Notes under the pieces: generated by a model
Seen by the model: only the letters and a program-made list of their open reading frames with translations
The model's database searches: none
Told to the model about the DNA's origin: nothing
Position numbers and translations under genes: made by a program
NCBI GenBank assembly: GCA_018830905.1
Contig: JAHJRM010000017.1
Location: forward strand, 1 to 24,992
Length of the DNA: 24,992 bases
Direction of reading: 5' to 3'
Source: Nanobdellota archaeon
GTDB taxonomy: Archaea > Nanobdellota > Nanobdellia > Pacearchaeales > GW2011-AR1
Shown: positions 16,187-24,990 of the stretch, one piece after another
Layout: the number at the start of each line of letters is the position of its first letter
How positions within the stretch are numbered: position 1 is the first letter of the stretch

Positions 16187-16666
16187 TCATCCTCTATCCC
16201 GAACCCTTCTTGATTTGGGAATAAAATTACCAATCTTATTCTCAGAAGCCTTGCCAATCCCAAAAAAATCATTTCCATTTTTCATAACCAAAAAACCGTT
16301 CAACCCGGTTCGAATATTCAAATCCCTTCCGCGAATCCAATCGTCCATGCTCTTATCATCCATCTCAAAAATATTTTTAGTTATTTGATTTCTTAGAAGA
16401 CTAACTCCTTCAATACTCAACTTGATTTTATCATCAACCATTTTAGCAAAATAAACTCCAACACGCTCAATAATAACATTTTCCTCAAGCTTCTTCAATT
16501 TCCAACTCTCAAAATTTCCAGAATAAAAATACAATCTTTCTCTGCCTCTCATAACCATAGTCCCAGGAACATCTTTAATGCCAAATCTCTCCTGCAACTC
16601 AGACACAACCCTCTCTCTATCTTTCATTGCAACAATTCTCATAGGCACAAACTTATCAGAAACCAT
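16187..16666 (-). CDS. Stand-alone RsmF C-terminal / NIP7-like PUA domain protein
   Basis: ERVGVYF, KLSIEG, WIRGRDL, DFFGIGK...IGNFIPKSRR; TTAAAAAA 29 nt upstream of ATG 16666. Confidence 0.75.
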   Translation of the reverse strand: MVSDKFVPMRIVAMKDRERVVSELQERFGIKDVPGTMVMRGRERLYFYSGNFESWKLKKLEENVIIERVGVYFAKMVDDKIKLSIEGVSLLRNQITKNIFEMDDKSMDDWIRGRDLNIRTGLNGFLVMKNGNDFFGIGKASENKIGNFIPKSRRVRDRG

Positions 16667-19126: not shown

Positions 19127-20095
19127 TTAATCCCCAACCTTCCTAAACTTCGCAATGAAAAAACCTTCAGTCTCATCATCCTGAGGATAAATTCTGCAAG
19201 AGTACTTAACATCTTCAAGATACTCTCTCTCCTTCCATTTAGAAATTCCTTCTCGAGATTTAATCGGGATGTTAATTCTCTCAATCTTAATCTGTCCCTT
19301 AAACTCTTCCAAAATGGAATTAACAACACCCTCATTTTCTTCGGGCGAGTGCGTGCACGTGCTATAAACAATCTCTCCGCCCTTTTTCAAAATACTAAAC
19401 GCATTAGAAAAAAGATCCTTCTGAACTCCAGAAAGTTTCCTCACTGTGTTAATATTCCACATTATTGCAGTTTTAGGCGTGCTCCTCAAAGTTCCCTCTC
19501 CAGAACACGGCGCATCAATAAGAATCTTATCAAATCCATAATCCAACTTCTTCAACTTTCTACACAAAGCCGCACCATCCTGTTTTGTAATCACAACATT
19601 AGTCACACCGCATCTCTCAGTATTCGAAGCAAGTATCTTTATCCTTCCAAGACTAACCTCATTTGCAATTATTGTCCCCGTATTTTTCATAAGAGAAGCA
19701 ATCTGCGTAGTCTTACTCCCAGGAGCAGCGCACAAATCTAAAACTAATTCATCAGGTTTAGGATTTAAAGCAATAACAGGCAACATACTCGCAATCTCCT
19801 GAACATAATAATATCCCAAAACGTGCTCAACACTTCTTCCCAACTCTCCGGGCTCCAATTCATTTTCAATAATCATTATCTCTGGATTCTTCTTGAACTT
19901 TTGAGAAAGTTTCCACCCCTTAGCCTCAAGACGCTTTTTCAAATCTGAAGGAGAAATTTTAAGAGTATTACATCTAATAGACCGCGGCGGCTCCCTCTCG
20001 ATCGCCTCAATATAATTATCAAAATCGTCGCCAAGAAGTTCTTTCATTCTCTCAATAAAAAGAGGTTTCAAGTTTGCAGAATCTAATCTTGTCAT
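19127..20095 (-). CDS. Nop2/RsmB/RsmF-family RNA m5C methyltransferase
   Basis: YYVQEIASM, DLCAAPGSKT, DKILIDAPCSGEG, YSTCTHSPEENE, TEGFFIAK. Confidence 0.95.
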   Translation of the reverse strand: MTRLDSANLKPLFIERMKELLGDDFDNYIEAIEREPPRSIRCNTLKISPSDLKKRLEAKGWKLSQKFKKNPEIMIIENELEPGELGRSVEHVLGYYYVQEIASMLPVIALNPKPDELVLDLCAAPGSKTTQIASLMKNTGTIIANEVSLGRIKILASNTERCGVTNVVITKQDGAALCRKLKKLDYGFDKILIDAPCSGEGTLRSTPKTAIMWNINTVRKLSGVQKDLFSNAFSILKKGGEIVYSTCTHSPEENEGVVNSILEEFKGQIKIERINIPIKSREGISKWKEREYLEDVKYSCRIYPQDDETEGFFIAKFRKVGD

Positions 20096-20238: not shown

Positions 20239-20844
20239 CTAACAACCACAACTCTTTATCTTCTTACCCAAAAAAAAGAAAGGATACAGGATATCACTAA
20301 CACAACAAGGAACAATAACTGCCACAAACGTAATTACAAAAGAAATCACCAAATAAGATACATCAAACTCTGGGCTAAAAGCAAGAAGGTAGAAAAGGCT
20401 TGCAAAAACAGACAATCCAACATGAATAAAATGAGGCATGCTCGTCATTTTTGTTTTCGCTCCAATAAAGCTTCCTACTAGTGCAGAGCCAAGGATTAAT
20501 GCTGGTTCTTCAATTATTGGAAGATGAAAATGTGTGTGAAGACTTAAGAGATTTCCCCCTATCCAAGGAAAAACAACATCGCTAAGACTTCCAATAATTA
20601 TCGCCCCAGAAATTCCAACTAGTAAAGCAGGAATCATTTTAGATTTGTATTTGTAAAAAATACCAGAGGTAACCATCGCAGATGCAAAAACATGCAGAGG
20701 ATGGAAAATCTCAAAAGACCCCTCCGAAACACCCAACTGTAAATAATACTCTATAAACAAAACGACCCCTATCGCAATAAACGTTGCCGCAGCAGCAAAA
20801 GGTACGTGATGCTTCGTCTCATGAATAAGTTCTTTAATCCTCAT
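20239..20844 (-). CDS. Multi-TM membrane protein with His/Cys clusters, unknown function
   Basis: About six hydrophobic segments; HHVPF, FHPLH, HTHFH, HFIH, PCCVSD. Confidence 0.8.
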   Translation of the reverse strand: MRIKELIHETKHHVPFAAAATFIAIGVVLFIEYYLQLGVSEGSFEIFHPLHVFASAMVTSGIFYKYKSKMIPALLVGISGAIIIGSLSDVVFPWIGGNLLSLHTHFHLPIIEEPALILGSALVGSFIGAKTKMTSMPHFIHVGLSVFASLFYLLAFSPEFDVSYLVISFVITFVAVIVPCCVSDILYPFFFLGKKIKSCGC

Positions 20845-21009: not shown

Positions 21010-23469
21010 TCAGAAATCCCCCAAACTAGTCTGCTTCTTTCCATCAGTAATTTCTTTTATATTCAATCCAAAAACCTGAAATATATTCTCAACAGAAGGA
21101 AGTATCTGTTTATCAAGATAGTATTCAATATCATACTCTCCTTTCTCTTCAGGCAACTTAACCTTATCCCTAACAAGACTCTTCTTCTCACCCATATTTG
21201 AAATATAATACTCAATCAAGCCCCCTCCGGTAAGAGGAATGTCCTTCTCTTTCATTTTCCGTGCAGCAATCACATGCGGCGAAATCGCCTTATACTCTCC
21301 CAAAGGCTTCTTCAACATAGTCTTAATTATCAAATCCTTCTTGTCAACATCTCGACTCTTAATCTTCTTAACTATATCCTTAACATATTCCAACGCCTCC
21401 TTTTCATTTCCAGACTCAAGAACCTGCATGATTACTTTATTCTGAACCTCACGCGCAAGCGCGCACCAATCTCTCCTAACTGTCTCAAATCCCCTAATCT
21501 TTAACTTCCCATCATGGCCCATCAAAGCATACTTCTTCTTCGCACCAATCGTCCCAGTCCTTTTAGTAACCCATAAACCCCTCTTGAAAAAGTCCTCAAG
21601 CTCAAGATGCATCACCCCAGGCAACTCTGAATTCAACTTATCAAGAAATTTCTTTACATCACTCTTAGATTTACCATTCATCAAAAACGCAACAGAATCA
21701 GTATCTCCAAAAATAACTTTATACCCTGCTTTCTCAACTTTGTCTATAGTTTCCTTATTATATTTTCTAACAAAAGCAAGTATCGAGGCAGAAGCCTCGT
21801 GACTATAATACCTAGCACCAAAAAACGCAACATATCCATGAGCGGAAGCAGACAAAACCTTAAACGCATTACTCTTAGCCTTCGTAAACAAGTTCGGATT
21901 TTTCTTATACTCTGCTTTCGCTTTCTTCCTCAATTCAAAAATTTCTTTCATTAATTCAGGAAAAAAACCAGGCTTCTTGGTAAAATAATACTTCACACTC
22001 TCACCATTCTCTTCAATTTCAGGAGATTCATAAGAATCTTTAGTCTTCTTCTCAAGAAGTGTAGCCTTTGACAAATTATGCGTGATAATTATACTTGTAT
22101 GCATCGAGGTGAAATCAAACATTGCTATATCTTCATACAATCCTGGCGTAGGCTCAAAAACAAACGCCCCCTCGCTCCGGATACCTTTTCTCTCACCAAT
22201 CTCTTCGTGACCAGGCCTTCTCTCTGGGATCTCATCAAACCTATAAAGATTATGCAACAAATAAGACTCAACATATTTCGAAAGACCAGCACGCGACACC
22301 TCATAAACAGGCTCTTTCAAAACGCTAACAAACTCTAACAAATCTGGCCAGAACTTATCAAATAAATCCTTAACCAATTTAGAATCATGAAGATTATACT
22401 CAAAATATTTATCCCAATCATCATCCTTAATCTTCGACGAATGCTTGAACTCAAAACTAACCTTCTTATCTCCTAAGAACTCTTTAGACACCTCATTCAA
22501 AGACAAAGTCTCAGATTGCATATACTGCGCATAAGCCGTCCGTATAAATTTCAATAAATCAATATGGACAATCCCAAAGATTCTTCCAGAAACCGAAACA
22601 CCTCTACTGAACTTAGGCTTAGAACCATCCAGACCCAGAGAAAGATTAACACCGTTATGGTCTGCTCTAGCCCTCAAATAAGGCAAATCAAAACCATCAG
22701 AAAAATATCCTACAAGAAAATCTGGTGAAACTTCCTTGACACACTCAACGAACCTCTCTAAAAGCTCCGCCTCATCTTTAACACTCTCTACATAATCAAG
22801 TTTCTTAGAATTATTCTTCCAAGTTATGACTTTCTTATAACCATCAGAAACAAGCGAGACCATAAGAATCTCTCCCTTCCCAGGAATCAAATCATCCGTT
22901 TCAATATCGTACGAAAGAATTTTAGGCTTGAACATCTTTTCTTTTTTAAGAATTTTAGCAGAATCTAACTTTATACAAACGTCAACATCAAGATTTTCAA
23001 TTCCTTGAAACTCTGGCCCAGCAATCTCCCCCGAAATCTCATACCATTTCAAAGGCAAAATCTTTTTTTCAATAATATAATGCGTAACAAATCCGATATC
23101 ATGACCTCTACGACAATCAATCTCTGGAAATATCAACTCTCCCGCAATATCATGCAAATCCTTATGATTAGTAACAAAGACCTTCAAAACATCTCTCTGT
23201 TTACCCAAGAAATTCTTCTTACAAATCTCAACTTTCTCCACCCGCGTTGCACGACCCTTCACATCAAGTTGTATTTTCCCAACCCTCTCACTAAGCCTCT
23301 TAATTTTCTCATTACTAATCCCTTCCTTAATAACAGCCCAGAGATACACTGAACAAGAATCAAAAACGCAGACTCTTTTGCCTTTTTCATCTCGACCAAT
23401 CATCCTAATATGATTCCTTCCCTCAAAGTCAAAATAATCATAATCCAAAGGCACAAATTCCATTTTCAT
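21010..23469 (-). CDS. polB: Family B DNA polymerase with a proofreading domain and PIP box; atypical motifs A/B/C
   Basis: ExoI YDIET, ExoII GFDLPYL, ExoIII YNLHD, FDFTSMHTSII, KVLSASAHGY, FGDTDS, KKKYAL, RGFETVRRDW, PIP QTSLGDF. Confidence 0.95.
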   Translation of the reverse strand: MKMEFVPLDYDYFDFEGRNHIRMIGRDEKGKRVCVFDSCSVYLWAVIKEGISNEKIKRLSERVGKIQLDVKGRATRVEKVEICKKNFLGKQRDVLKVFVTNHKDLHDIAGELIFPEIDCRRGHDIGFVTHYIIEKKILPLKWYEISGEIAGPEFQGIENLDVDVCIKLDSAKILKKEKMFKPKILSYDIETDDLIPGKGEILMVSLVSDGYKKVITWKNNSKKLDYVESVKDEAELLERFVECVKEVSPDFLVGYFSDGFDLPYLRARADHNGVNLSLGLDGSKPKFSRGVSVSGRIFGIVHIDLLKFIRTAYAQYMQSETLSLNEVSKEFLGDKKVSFEFKHSSKIKDDDWDKYFEYNLHDSKLVKDLFDKFWPDLLEFVSVLKEPVYEVSRAGLSKYVESYLLHNLYRFDEIPERRPGHEEIGERKGIRSEGAFVFEPTPGLYEDIAMFDFTSMHTSIIITHNLSKATLLEKKTKDSYESPEIEENGESVKYYFTKKPGFFPELMKEIFELRKKAKAEYKKNPNLFTKAKSNAFKVLSASAHGYVAFFGARYYSHEASASILAFVRKYNKETIDKVEKAGYKVIFGDTDSVAFLMNGKSKSDVKKFLDKLNSELPGVMHLELEDFFKRGLWVTKRTGTIGAKKKYALMGHDGKLKIRGFETVRRDWCALAREVQNKVIMQVLESGNEKEALEYVKDIVKKIKSRDVDKKDLIIKTMLKKPLGEYKAISPHVIAARKMKEKDIPLTGGGLIEYYISNMGEKKSLVRDKVKLPEEKGEYDIEYYLDKQILPSVENIFQVFGLNIKEITDGKKQTSLGDF

Positions 23470-23553
23470 AAATTTATTAAAGTTCGAAGTTATTTAAATC
23501 TTGATAAATTTTCAAAACAAAAAGTTTATATATCGTTTGCAAGGAATAAAAAC

Positions 23554-23919
23554 ATGGAAAAACTTGAAAGATACCAAAGACTTGATGAAGAATATGACCC
23601 TGAATTAGACATTCTTGAAACAGGGGGAGCTAGGGGAATTGCTTTAGCCGAAGAAATTCTTATGGAACAGAGAGTTGAAAATCTTGTAAACAATGCAGGT
23701 AAAACTAAAAGAGACAGAGTTTATCAAACATTTCTCAGTGAATCAGATAGAATTAGCTATTTTAGACCAGAAGTTCAAAGGAACATTCTTGAAAAATATT
23801 TTCCGGGAAGATTCGGTAGAACAGGAAGAACTCCTGTCTCGCAAATGGATGACCAGCAGATTCTCGGGACATTTAATGGACTAGTCAATTATGCAAGAAA
23901 AAGAGTCTACCATCAATAA
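23554..23919 (+). CDS. Hypothetical 121-aa protein
   Basis: ATG 23554 lies 29 nt after TTTATATA; the upstream extension in the ORF track overlaps polB. Confidence 0.75.
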   Translation: MEKLERYQRLDEEYDPELDILETGGARGIALAEEILMEQRVENLVNNAGKTKRDRVYQTFLSESDRISYFRPEVQRNILEKYFPGRFGRTGRTPVSQMDDQQILGTFNGLVNYARKRVYHQ

Positions 23920-23949: not shown

Positions 23950-24990
23950 ATGGGTCTAAACATACGAGAAATAATTCCAAGAAAAGAAATTGAAATAAGC
24001 GATTTGAAAAACGAAATAGTCTGTGTGGACGCTTACAATATGCTATACCAATTCCTTTCTACAATCAGACAACCTGATGGCACGCCATTGATGGATAATC
24101 AAAAAAGAATAACTAGCCATTTATCAGGGATATTCTATAGAAACACTAACCTCATCTCAGAGGGAATCAAACTAGTGTATATATTTGACGGCAAACCGCC
24201 TGCACTAAAGAGCGGAACGCATTCTATAAGAAAAGAGGCAAGAGAAAATGCAAAAGAGAAATATGACGAAGCTAAACAAACAGAAGACATAGATTCAATG
24301 AGACGTTACAGCTCACAATTTGTCAGAATAGATGATGAAATGTTAGACGAAAGCAAAGAACTTCTTGAAGCAATGGGAATTGCAGTCATCCAAGCACCAA
24401 GCGAAGGAGAAGCTCAAGCCGCTTATCTAAACAAGACAAACAGTGAAGTATTTGCAACAGTCAGTCAAGACTATGACAGCCTTCTTTTTGGAGCTACAAG
24501 ACTAGTAAGAAACCTTGGGCTCTCAAGAAAAAGAAAAACCTATTCTGGATGGGTTGAAGTTTATCCGGAACTTATAGAACTAGAAAAGGTCCTAAATTCT
24601 ATGGAAATAAATTTAGATCAATTAATCTGTATAGGGATTCTTGTGGGAACAGATTACAATCCTAAAGGTATTCCCGGAATAGGTCAGAAAAAGGCCCTGG
24701 ACTTAGTTAAAAAATATAAACAACCAATCTCAATATTCCAGAGTATTGAAGAACAGATAATGAGTATATCAGAGGAGGATCGATTTGACTGGAAAGAAAT
24801 TTTTGAACTATTCCACAAACCAAACGTTGAGAATTTTAAAATAGAATTCCCAGAAGTTGATGAAGACAAAATAAAAGAAATATTAGTAAAAAGACACGAC
24901 TTCTCTGAAGAGCGTGTAGAAAAACAGCTCGAAAGACTCAGAGAAGTTAATGAAAAAAAGAAACAGAAAAATTTAGATAAGTGGTTTTAA
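23950..24990 (+). CDS. fen: Flap endonuclease 1
   Basis: VDAYNMLYQFLSTIRQPDG, YIFDG, APSEGEAQAA, SQDYDSLLFG, GTDYNPKGIPGIG, PIP QKNLDKWF. Confidence 0.97.
   Translation: MGLNIREIIPRKEIEISDLKNEIVCVDAYNMLYQFLSTIRQPDGTPLMDNQKRITSHLSGIFYRNTNLISEGIKLVYIFDGKPPALKSGTHSIRKEARENAKEKYDEAKQTEDIDSMRRYSSQFVRIDDEMLDESKELLEAMGIAVIQAPSEGEAQAAYLNKTNSEVFATVSQDYDSLLFGATRLVRNLGLSRKRKTYSGWVEVYPELIELEKVLNSMEINLDQLICIGILVGTDYNPKGIPGIGQKKALDLVKKYKQPISIFQSIEEQIMSISEEDRFDWKEIFELFHKPNVENFKIEFPEVDEDKIKEILVKRHDFSEERVEKQLERLREVNEKKKQKNLDKWF

What the first reader, a model, noticed from the sequence alone, without database searches (positions are those of the whole stretch)
21690..22130. PolB with a coordinately remodelled nucleotide-binding pocket, including the steric gate
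Canonical DFxSLYPSII, KxxxNSxYGY and YGDTDS appear here as DFTSMHTSII, KVLSASAHGY and FGDTDS. The catalytic aspartates, the three Exo motifs and the PIP box are intact. The motif A Tyr is the established ribonucleotide steric gate in family B polymerases and is His here. Inference: altered sugar/base selectivity or fidelity (e.g. rNTP or modified-nucleotide use) rather than inactivation.
Basis: partly seen in the sequence, partly recalled or inferred. Interest (0 to 1): 0.6.

Follow-up and report, generated by a model that had tools for sequence, protein, structure and literature searches.

The report
Archaeal DNA polymerase with histidine sugar gate
The only family-B DNA polymerase of this tiny groundwater DPANN archaeon is intact, but it has replaced the near-universal Tyr/Asn/Tyr that hold the incoming nucleotide's sugar with His/Ala/His, a conserved, recurrent natural redesign whose effect on DNA-versus-RNA building-block choice is still untested.

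Summary
The 819-aa PolB (window 21010-23469, minus strand) reads DFTSMHTSII, KVLSASAHGY and FGDTDS. Its catalytic Asp residues, Exo I-III, KKKYA and a C-terminal PIP-like QTSLGDF are intact.

The change is clade-wide. All 120 nearest database homologues carry SMHTS plus SAS[AVI]HGY, and so do 14 of 58 typed genomes of the same GTDB family.

It is a wider, coupled set of substitutions (Tgo numbering): L408M, Y409H, P410T, N491A, Y494H, T514L and I521N.

New here:
- None of 48 orthologues in this family keeps the canonical L-Y-P triad. They carry MHT, MHA, S/CYG, MY[A/S/G], MYP or [Y/F]WP.
- The fingers/palm segment (aa ~441-600) has a different tree from the rest of the protein.
- A separate small clade (LHP + AAGFHGY + L514) reached His/Ala/His independently.

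The genome also encodes PolD (His gate kept), PCNA, RNase HII and a class II RNR. FEN1 lies next to polB.

Best reading: an active, proofreading PolB with a His-based sugar pocket. Whether sugar selectivity is kept, relaxed or retuned cannot be decided in silico.

The scan found the same His/Ala/His swap before on other DNA (e1-1496689). I found no published description in the library searched.

The parts
21010..23469 (-). polB gene, 819 aa (P0001): family-B DNA polymerase, Thermococcales (B3)-like. It is the only PolB found in the genome.
   Evidence: Translation. Pfam PF00136 (1.8e-49) and PF03104 (7.2e-26). PDB hits Pfu/KOD/Tgo at E~1e-109. AF2 pLDDT 90.8 and TM 0.83-0.90 to KOD/9N/TgoT. 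Single PolB hit in the genome.
22087..22116 (-). Motif A, DFTSMHTSII. It holds catalytic D452 and the triad M456-H457-T458 in place of L-Y-P. The H457 codon (22099-22101) is the steric-gate position.
21832..21861 (-). Motif B, KVLSASAHGY. K537 is kept. A541 (21847-21849) replaces Asn (Tgo N491). H544 (21838-21840) replaces Tyr (Tgo Y494).
   Evidence: Roles of N491 and Y494 in KOD/TgoT ternary complexes: PMC5718519 and PMC7763228.
21757..21780 (-). Second-shell palm positions coupled to the pocket: L564 (21778-21780, Tgo T514) and N571 (21757-21759, Tgo I521).
   Evidence: Clade-specific invariant substitutions. Coupling table. Numbering derived from the alignment.
21694..21711 (-). Motif C, FGDTDS, with both catalytic Asp residues (D589, D591). 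The leading F/Y is polymorphic in the clade.
22894..22908 (-). Exo I, DIETD.
22678..22710 (-). Exo II, GYFSDGFDLPY.
22384..22398 (-). Exo III, YNLHD.
21526..21540 (-). KKKYA (KKxY) primer-binding motif of the thumb.
   Evidence: K645 and Y647 are invariant in alignment A1.
21013..21033 (-). C-terminal PIP-like box QTSLGDF-COOH, with a single terminal aromatic residue.
   Evidence: Q813 and L816 are at least 90% conserved. Family members end Q..L..F/W/Y. PCNA is present.
23950..24990 (+). Divergently placed FEN1 (flap endonuclease), ending in the canonical PIP QKNLDKWF. The FEN1-polB neighbourhood is conserved in relatives.
   Evidence: Pfam XPG_N and XPG_I. C-terminus. Synteny in G281 and G397. 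Co-location on the same contigs in many family genomes.

Best explanation
This is the orthologue of the archaeal B3-type PolB in a PolD-containing DPANN archaeon. It is a functional, proofreading, PCNA-tethered DNA polymerase. Its likely work is gap filling and strand displacement with FEN1 (Okazaki maturation, ribonucleotide-excision and other repair), while PolD does bulk replication.

Its nucleotide pocket has been rebuilt as a co-adapted set. The ring that stacks under the sugar is His instead of Tyr (Tgo Y409). The second pocket Tyr (Y494) is also His. The Asn that hydrogen-bonds the beta-phosphate and 3'-OH (N491) is Ala. The neighbours L408, P410, T514 and I521 are M, T, L and N.

Inferred mechanism, not shown: the imidazole at the gate still blocks a 2'-OH and can hydrogen-bond the 3'-OH, as proposed for PolD H931. 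That would compensate for the lost Asn. The enzyme would then still prefer dNTPs, with retuned affinity or selectivity.

Shown: the sequence state, its conservation, its coupling, its recurrence and the genomic context.

Inferred: activity and substrate preference.
For: - Integrity: all catalytic and exonuclease motifs, KKxY and the PIP-like C-terminus are intact. The full-length PolB fold is modelled with confidence, pLDDT 90.8, TM 0.83-0.90 to KOD/9N/TgoT.
- Purifying selection: His/Ala/His is invariant in 120 homologues at about 68-96% core identity. In the pooled alignment it is linked to L514 and N521 in 129 of 129 sequences.
- Recurrence: a separate clade of 6 sequences has LHP + AAGFHGY + L514. 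It groups with canonical LYP relatives both in the whole protein and in the 441-600 segment.
- Coupling: T514L occurs only where Tyr494 is replaced (His, once Thr) or in the MHA type (gate His, Tyr494 kept). It is never seen with canonical Tyr at both 409 and 494.
- Sole PolB: it is the only PolB found in an 89%-complete 0.6-Mb genome, and no Y-family polymerase was found. It is therefore the only polymerase found besides PolD (primase was not searched for).
- Replication and repair partners in the genome: PolD DP2 and DP1, PCNA, RNase HII and a class II RNR. DP2 was found in 58 of 61 family genomes.
- FEN1 is adjacent and syntenic. This matches the archaeal RNase HII - PolB - Fen1 pathway (PMC13492167).
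- Precedent: His is an experimentally proven steric gate in PolD and the proposed gate in family C (PMC7708050; PMC13492167).
Against: - There are no biochemical data, and no ligand-bound model could be built here. Model coordinates are not exposed, so His-to-sugar geometry was not measured.
- His is smaller than Tyr, and losing N491 removes a triphosphate and 3'-OH contact. In KOD, N491S lowers DNA synthesis and favours TNA (PMC9738464).
- The changed positions coincide with engineering hot spots for altered sugar or template specificity: 408/409/410, 491, 514 and 521. Examples are KOD RTX T514I/I521L and RT521 I521L. A real change of specificity is therefore plausible.
- From memory, not verified here: Leu to Met at the residue before the gate raises rNMP incorporation in yeast Pol alpha and Pol delta.
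Confidence: 0.5

Rival explanations
1. Relaxed or inverted sugar selectivity. The His/Ala/His pocket, with Met before the gate, lets the enzyme incorporate rNTPs or other 2'/3'-modified nucleotides efficiently. An example would be gap filling when dNTPs are scarce in a host-dependent cell, with RNase HII and FEN1 cleaning up later.
For: - The gate residue is smaller and the Asn contact to the 3'-OH is lost.
- The changed positions (408-410, 491, 514, 521) are those mutated to make RNA, XNA or RT-capable PolBs.
- RNase HII with a PIP-like tail and FEN1 are present.
Against: - His is a competent steric gate in PolD. There, only small residues (Ala, Ser, Val) opened the gate.
- Engineered RNA synthesis by PolB needs Gly or Ala at position 409.
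- The genome has a class II RNR, so dNTPs can be made.
- The proofreading exonuclease is intact.
Confidence: 0.22
2. Diversifying selection on the pocket. The motif A triad and its partners are alternative 'pocket alleles' that are selected and exchanged within this family, because something targets the pocket. Candidates are nucleotide-analogue chain terminators or pocket-binding inhibitors from hosts, competitors or viruses. The His/His type would be one resistant solution.
For: - None of 48 orthologues in the family keeps L-Y-P. There are six alternative triads, each conserved within its group.
- Different types occur within one GTDB genus: G000 is MHT and G281 is SYG, with conserved synteny.
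- The 441-600 segment gives a different tree from the rest.
- An AU test rejects monophyly of the MHT rows on non-pocket columns, p=0.013.
Against: - No inhibitor or analogue-producing system was identified.
- The incongruence could instead reflect convergent second-shell changes, or weak signal in 137 columns. Most branches in the segment tree are unstarred.
- The AU group was named after the tree had been seen.
Confidence: 0.15
3. Altered primer or template specificity rather than altered incoming-nucleotide choice. The T514L and I521N changes, with the pocket changes, would adapt the enzyme to RNA-containing primer-templates: RNA primer extension, RNA-templated repair synthesis, or displacement of RNA primers.
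For: - T514I and I521L are among the mutations that turn KOD or Tgo PolB into reverse transcriptases (RTX, RT521).
- The gene is linked to FEN1.
Against: - The RT variants need many further mutations.
- Here I521 becomes Asn, not Leu.
- The main changes contact the incoming nucleotide, not the template strand.
Confidence: 0.08
4. Decaying or non-polymerising PolB, kept only as an exonuclease or a PCNA-binding scaffold because PolD does all the synthesis.
For: - PolD is near-universal in the family.
- From memory: PolB is dispensable in some PolD-containing Euryarchaeota.
- Two near-universal pocket residues are lost.
Against: - The new residues are invariant over more than 120 diverged sequences.
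- All metal ligands, K537, R514 and KKxY are kept.
- The same solution arose twice.
- No other repair polymerase was found.
Confidence: 0.05

Closest known systems
Thermococcales B3-type PolB (Pfu, KOD, Tgo, 9 deg N)
   Same: The domain order and fold are the same (TM 0.83-0.90). About 30% identity overall, E~1e-109. Exo I-III, motif A Asp, motif C DTD, K487, R460, KKxY and a C-terminal PCNA-binding tail are shared.
   Different: - L408/Y409/P410 become M/H/T.
- N491 and Y494 become A and H.
- T514 and I521 become L and N.
- W504 becomes Y.
- The second gate, E664, is Thr here. Alignment A1's consensus suggests this is common among the DPANN relatives, but it was not tabulated.
- The uracil-pocket prolines are replaced.
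- The source genome is a small DPANN MAG (earlier scan notes call it a groundwater organism).
PolD (family D) and PolC/Pol III (family C) histidine steric gates
   Same: A histidine faces the sugar of the incoming nucleotide. In PolD, H931 both excludes rNTPs and is proposed to hydrogen-bond the 3'-OH (PMC7708050, PMC13492167).
   Different: The folds are unrelated (two-barrel and Pol-beta-like). The resemblance is functional analogy only. This genome's own PolD keeps its His, read as APHN.
Engineered PolB variants for RNA, XNA or reverse transcription (TGK/TGLLK Y409G; 9N/KOD 408-410 triple mutants; Kod-RS N491S; RTX T514I/I521L; RT521 I521L)
   Same: The same positions are changed: 408, 409, 410, 491, 514 and 521.
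   Different: The natural residues differ. They are His, not Gly or Ala, at 409; Ala at 491; His at 494; Asn at 521. The exonuclease is intact. The set is naturally selected and conserved.
Sister PolB types in the same DPANN family (S/CYG, MY[A/S/G], MYP, [Y/F]WP and MHA triads) and the independent LHP + AAGFHGY clade
   Same: The gene is orthologous, the FEN1 neighbourhood was conserved in the two relatives compared (one SYG, one MHT), and the canonical triad is non-canonical in all of them.
   Different: Most sister types keep the gate Tyr or use Trp, and keep N491 and Y494. Only the MHT clade and the LHP clade combine His409, Ala491 and His494.

Membership tests
Family B DNA polymerase (Pfam DNA_pol_B + DNA_pol_B_exo1) | Profile match above the curated cut-offs, and the overall fold. 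| tested here: met
   PF00136 at 169 bits (cut-off 23) and PF03104 at 91.5 bits. Foldseek TM 0.83-0.90 to KOD/9N/TgoT.
Family B DNA polymerase | 3'-5' exonuclease motifs Exo I (DxE), Exo II (Nx2-3F/YD) and Exo III (Yx3D). | tested here: met
   DIETD..SDGFD.. and YNLHD. The Asn of Exo II is replaced, as in most DPANN relatives (GYFSDGFD).
Family B DNA polymerase | Motif A DxxSLYPS, with the catalytic Asp and the steric-gate Tyr. | tested here: not met
   Asp452 and Ser455 are present, but L-Y-P reads M-H-T. The catalytic part is met. The gate Tyr is not.
Family B DNA polymerase | Motif B Kx3NSxYG. | tested here: not met
   K537, S542 and G545 are kept. Asn becomes Ala541 and Tyr becomes His544.
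Family B DNA polymerase | Motif C YxDTDS with two catalytic Asp residues, and the KKxY motif. | tested here: met
   FGDTDS and KKKYA. D589, T590, D591, K645 and Y647 are invariant in A1.
Archaeal PolB group B3 (Thermococcales-like) | Closer to B3 than to B1 (Sulfolobus Dpo1) or PolII-like groups. | tested here: inconclusive
   PDB E-values: Thermococcales 1e-109, Pyrobaculum 5mdn 1.6e-80, E. coli Pol II 2.7e-42, S. solfataricus PolB1 4e-32. No formal tree with labelled B1, B2 and B3 references was built.
PCNA-binding replicative/repair polymerase | C-terminal PIP box Qxx[LIM]xx[FYW][FYW], and PCNA in the genome. | tested here: inconclusive
   QTSLGDF-COOH has only one aromatic residue. PCNA is present. 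FEN1 and DP2 end in the full QxxLxxWF. Binding was not tested.
Histidine-steric-gate polymerases (PolD, PolC) - functional analogy only | The His side chain lies against C2' of the incoming nucleotide and excludes rNTPs. | not testable with these tools
   H457 aligns with the Tyr that stacks on the sugar in KOD/TgoT. Geometry and discrimination need a ternary structure and kinetics.

The most novel reading that the evidence does not exclude
A whole family of DPANN archaea treats the most conserved part of the family-B nucleotide pocket as a swappable, selectable module. At least six alternative 'LYP' triads exist, and a fingers/palm cassette is exchanged between lineages. The His/Ala/His form would be a natural family-B polymerase with substantially changed sugar specificity: efficient rNTP or 2'/3'-modified nucleotide use, or resistance to nucleotide-analogue poisons. 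That would make it a natural counterpart of engineered XNA and RNA polymerases.
Probability: 0.2. Interest if true: 0.85.

Novelty: new variant of a known kind. Interest (0 to 1): 0.62.

Why it matters
The motif A Tyr is treated as the family-B steric gate (Tyr, or Phe per PMC13492167), and it is a main lever of polymerase engineering. This work shows three things:
- A large natural clade has swapped it for His, together with the motif B Asn and Tyr and two second-shell residues.
- A second clade found the same solution independently.
- A whole archaeal family has no canonical triad at all.

This gives ready-made, evolution-tested pocket designs. They can be used to test how sugar discrimination is built in B-family enzymes. 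They offer new scaffolds for RNA and XNA synthesis or modified-nucleotide sequencing chemistries. They also raise the question of what PolB does next to PolD in ultra-small archaea. Every step is directly testable with recombinant protein.

Tried and rejected
- Literature: searches for Y409H, Y410H, Y412H, Y416H, Y254H or Y494H polymerase mutants found nothing relevant. Searches for 'steric gate' with DPANN and for the RB69 Y567/T587/Y391 network also gave nothing usable. The idea that T514 hydrogen-bonds Tyr494 therefore rests on memory only.
- Kazlauskas et al. 2020 (PMC7544198) does not discuss the gate in DPANN PolBs.
- A DNA pattern for DF.SMHTSII matched one genome outside the family (G298). 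It proved to be a chance match in a frame full of stops.
- The AF2 model gave fold confirmation only. Coordinates are not exposed, so His-His and His-sugar distances could not be measured.
- A careful IQ-TREE run with bootstraps timed out. Quick trees were used instead.
- I considered that PolB-type differences within one genus meant simple horizontal replacement of the gene. Synteny is conserved. Flanking proteins are somewhat closer to the same-genus genome, while PolB is closer to another genus. FEN1 identity does not sort by PolB type. Whole-gene replacement is therefore not required, and segmental exchange or convergence fits better.
- I did not cross-tabulate RNR or RNase HII presence against PolB type. 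PolD shows no association; it is near-universal.
Full report
**1. What is in the sequence**

The minus-strand ORF at 21010-23469 encodes an uninterrupted 819-aa protein, P0001. Pfam assigns it DNA_pol_B and DNA_pol_B_exo1. Its best solved relatives are the Thermococcales PolBs (Pfu, KOD, Tgo, 9 deg N) at E~1e-109. Pyrobaculum PolB, E. coli Pol II, Pol delta and Sulfolobus PolB1 follow well behind.

- DFTSMHTSII, aa 452-461, window 22087-22116.
- KVLSASAHGY, aa 537-546, window 21832-21861.
- FGDTDS, aa 587-592, window 21694-21711.

The HMMER alignment to Pfu puts M456-H457-T458 on the L-Y-P triad, Tgo 408-410, where Y409 is the steric gate. It puts A541 on Tgo N491 and H544 on Tgo Y494.

These features are all present:
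- Exo I (DIETD), Exo II (..SDGFD..) and Exo III (YNLHD).
- The two motif C aspartates and the motif A aspartate.
- The finger residues equivalent to R460, K464 and K487.
- The LELE acidic pair and KKKYA.

The protein ends in QTSLGDF-COOH, a PIP-like box with one aromatic residue. An AlphaFold2 model built on 102 homologues is confident (pLDDT 90.8). It superposes on KOD, 9N and TgoT binary and ternary complexes at TM 0.83-0.90.

**2. The change is clade-wide and wider than reported**

All 120 best database homologues carry D-F-x-SMHTSII and SAS[A/V/I]HGY. They are 68-96% identical in the core and come from 'Nanoarchaeota' and 'Pacearchaeota' MAGs. The leading Phe of motif C is polymorphic, split about evenly between F and Y, so it is not part of the signature.

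I compared 110 clade members with 131 more distant PolB3-like representatives. The following positions are invariant in the clade and differ from a strong outgroup consensus, given as P0001 number and Tgo equivalent:
- M456 (L408), H457 (Y409), T458 (P410)
- F536 (I486), A541 (N491), H544 (Y494)
- Y554 (W504), S560 (A510), L564 (T514), N571 (I521)
- W633, plus E416, T529 and G122

Some of these (Y554, W633, E416) are shared by the whole family. The set M/H/T, A491, H494, S510, L514 and N521 is specific to this type.

Published ternary complexes explain why these positions matter. In KOD the sugar packs on Y409, with C2' closest to the ring. N491 bonds the beta-phosphate and can bond the 3'-OH, and the nascent base pair stacks on N491 and S492 (PMC5718519). 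[quoted passage not shown] Positions 408-410, 491, 514 and 521 are also the classic engineering hot spots (PMC11828419, PMC9738464). Examples:
- Y409G/A for RNA and XNA synthesis.
- 408-410 triple mutants for 3'-blocked nucleotides.
- Kod-RS N491S.
- RTX T514I and I521L, and RT521 I521L.

**3. The family picture**

The genome (G000) is 598 kb in 98 contigs and 89% complete. In a sample of 401 genomes of its phylum, the DNA pattern for DF.SMHTSII occurred only in its own GTDB family: 7 of 27 other members. The one outside hit is a chance match in a frame with stops.

I then typed the PolB of 58 of 60 sampled family genomes:

| Motif A triad (with motif B) | Genomes |
|---|---|
| MHT + SASxH | 14 |
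| MHA + canonical motif B (ANAYY) | 2 |
| S/CYG | 13 |
| MY[A/S/G] | 10 |
| MYP | 1 |
| [Y/F]WP | 9 |
| Canonical LYP | 0 of 48 orthologues |

(The 14 MHT genomes include G000, so the rows sum to 49; the 48 orthologues exclude G000.)

Ten further genomes lack this orthologue. They carry instead a distant PolB (about 35% identity) that does have SLYPS.

So in this family the most conserved triad of B-family polymerases is a hot spot with at least six states, each conserved within its group. A same-genus genome (G281) carries SYG, although the locus is syntenic. The locus order is FEN1, a small ORF, polB, a membrane protein, then a Nop2/RsmB-type methyltransferase.

**4. Coupling, recurrence and mosaicism**

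In a pooled alignment of 410 sequences, the combination MHT / A491 / H494 / L514 / N521 occurs 129 times without exception. T514L never occurs with canonical Tyr at both 409 and 494. It is found only in these states:
- His494: the MHT type, the LHP type, and one MYP/S491/H494 sequence (P0124).
- Thr494: one sequence (P0262).
- The MHA type.

A separate small clade (P0126 and five relatives, 69-100% identical in the core) has LHP + AAGFHGY + L514. Its nearest relatives, at 62% identity or less, are canonical. It groups with canonical LYP sequences both in a whole-protein tree and in a tree of the 441-600 segment alone. This is a genuinely independent second origin of His409/Ala491/His494.

Within the family the picture is mosaic. 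On the 776 non-pocket columns:
- The main MHT clade (100% SH-aLRT) is nested among SYG sequences (96%), and then among WP sequences (100%).
- One full MHT/SASIH/SLN sequence (L016, G428) lies outside all 29 others (100%).
- The MHA sequence groups with MYA and YWP (97%).

Holding all MHT rows together costs 88.9 log-likelihood units, AU p=0.013. The caveat is that the group was named after the tree had been seen.

Sliding windows show that L016 and L015 are closer to the MHT clade only between about aa 441 and 600, even with the pocket columns removed. A tree of that segment puts all Tyr/Trp-gate types in one clade (96%) and leaves the His-gate types outside it. Either the fingers/palm segment has been exchanged between lineages, or many second-shell positions converge with the pocket. 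I cannot separate these two at protein level.

**5. Genomic context**

| Item | Finding |
|---|---|
| Other PolB | None found |
| Y-family polymerase | None found |
| PolD DP2 and DP1 | Adjacent on contig C50 |
| PolD in the family | DP2 found in 58 of 61 genomes |
| DP2 steric gate | His kept; motif reads APHN instead of the reported invariant PHT |
| DP2 C-terminus | QEALEKWF |
| PCNA | Present |
| RNase HII | Present, ends SQKKLF |
| Ribonucleotide reductase | Class II, B12-dependent |
| FEN1 | Next to polB, ends QKNLDKWF |

In Thermococcales, PolD is the main replicase. PolB performs strand-displacement synthesis with Fen1 in ribonucleotide excision repair and primer removal (review PMC13492167). 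The conserved polB-FEN1 linkage fits that role.

**6. How it most likely works**

The integrity of all catalytic elements, the strict conservation of the new residues, their coupling, and their independent re-invention argue for an active enzyme with a co-adapted alternative pocket. They argue against decay.

Histidine is a proven steric gate in PolD. H931A abolishes discrimination, and His is proposed to clash with the 2'-OH and hydrogen-bond the 3'-OH (PMC7708050). It is also the proposed gate in family C.

My best reading, at about 0.5, is this: H457 still stacks under the sugar and excludes the 2'-OH. H457, H544 or both take over the hydrogen bond lost with N491. L564 and N571 repack the space left beneath Tyr494 and near D542.

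The main rival, at about 0.22, is truly relaxed sugar selectivity. The points in its favour are the smaller gate, the lost Asn, a Met before the gate, and the overlap with positions used to build RNA, XNA and RT enzymes.

Diversifying selection on the pocket (about 0.15) would explain the six triads and the mosaic segment, but no selective agent is known. Altered primer or template specificity (about 0.08) and loss of polymerase function (about 0.05) are less likely.

**7. Comparison with what is known, and novelty**

The protein is a member of family B and is closest to the B3 type by similarity. It fails two textbook motif features: the gate Tyr, and the motif B Asn and Tyr. It works like, but is unrelated to, the His-gated PolD and PolC.

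I found no paper in the searched library describing a natural family-B polymerase with His or Trp at the gate, or this DPANN clade.

The scan itself reported the same His/Ala/His swap on another genome (e1-1496689). It also noted the SSYGS type (e1-4359018) and the fen1-polB module and minimal PIP tails (e1-1170880, e1-2569286). My results were obtained before that look-up and agree with it. They add the family-wide triad diversity, the T514/I521 coupling, the MHA state (gate His with a canonical motif B), the segment incongruence and the genome context.

Verdict: a real, conserved new variant of a known kind. Interest is moderately high, and the function can be tested directly with recombinant protein.

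Noticed in passing
G000 contig C50 (outside the window), DP2 ORF of 1167 aa: The PolD large-subunit selectivity motif reads CMAPHN. The steric-gate His is kept, but the Thr of the 'invariant' PHT (PMC7708050) is Asn. DP2 ends in the canonical PIP QEALEKWF, and DP1 lies next to it.
   Followed up: partly
Loci L057-L067 (G403, G411, G436, G450 x2, G417, G442, G453, G444, G445, G409): Ten of 60 sampled genomes of the same GTDB family lack the B3-like PolB orthologue. They carry instead a distant PolB (about 35% identity) with canonical DFKSLYPSII and motif B K..MNSFFGV (Tyr to Phe).
   Followed up: partly
window 23080-23450 (-), PolB N-terminal domain aa ~12-127: The residues that form the archaeal read-ahead uracil pocket are partly replaced: Pfu P36 to V41, P90 to H102, V93 to L105, P115 to G126. 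Y7, Y37 and F116 are kept. Uracil stalling may therefore be altered or lost.
   Followed up: no
window 23410-23919 (+): A small ORF (up to 169 aa, probably starting at an internal Met) lies between FEN1 and polB. It has no Pfam match and no BLASTP match (E<=1e-10) in the two relatives compared.
   Followed up: partly
window 20239-20844 (-): A 201-aa multi-pass hydrophobic protein with no Pfam match, ending in KSCGC, sits directly downstream of polB.
   Followed up: no
window 19127-20095 (-) and 16187-16666 (-): A Nop2/RsmB-type RNA m5C methyltransferase and a separate PUA-domain protein lie downstream of polB on the same strand. Both are syntenic with polB in G281 and G397.
   Followed up: partly
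Proteins P0057, P0124, P0127, P0134, P0151, P0275 and others (1170-1730 aa): Many PolB homologues of this group carry inteins (Pfam PF14528/PF14890) that split the polymerase domain. The window's gene has none.
   Followed up: no
Proteins P0123, P0129, P0145, P0281, P0311, P0322, P0339, P0377, P0380; loci L025, L026, L028, L031, L033: A Trp at the steric-gate position, always preceded by Tyr or Phe ([Y/F]WP) and paired with a canonical motif B, recurs in several Nanoarchaeota PolB lineages inside and outside the family.
   Followed up: partly
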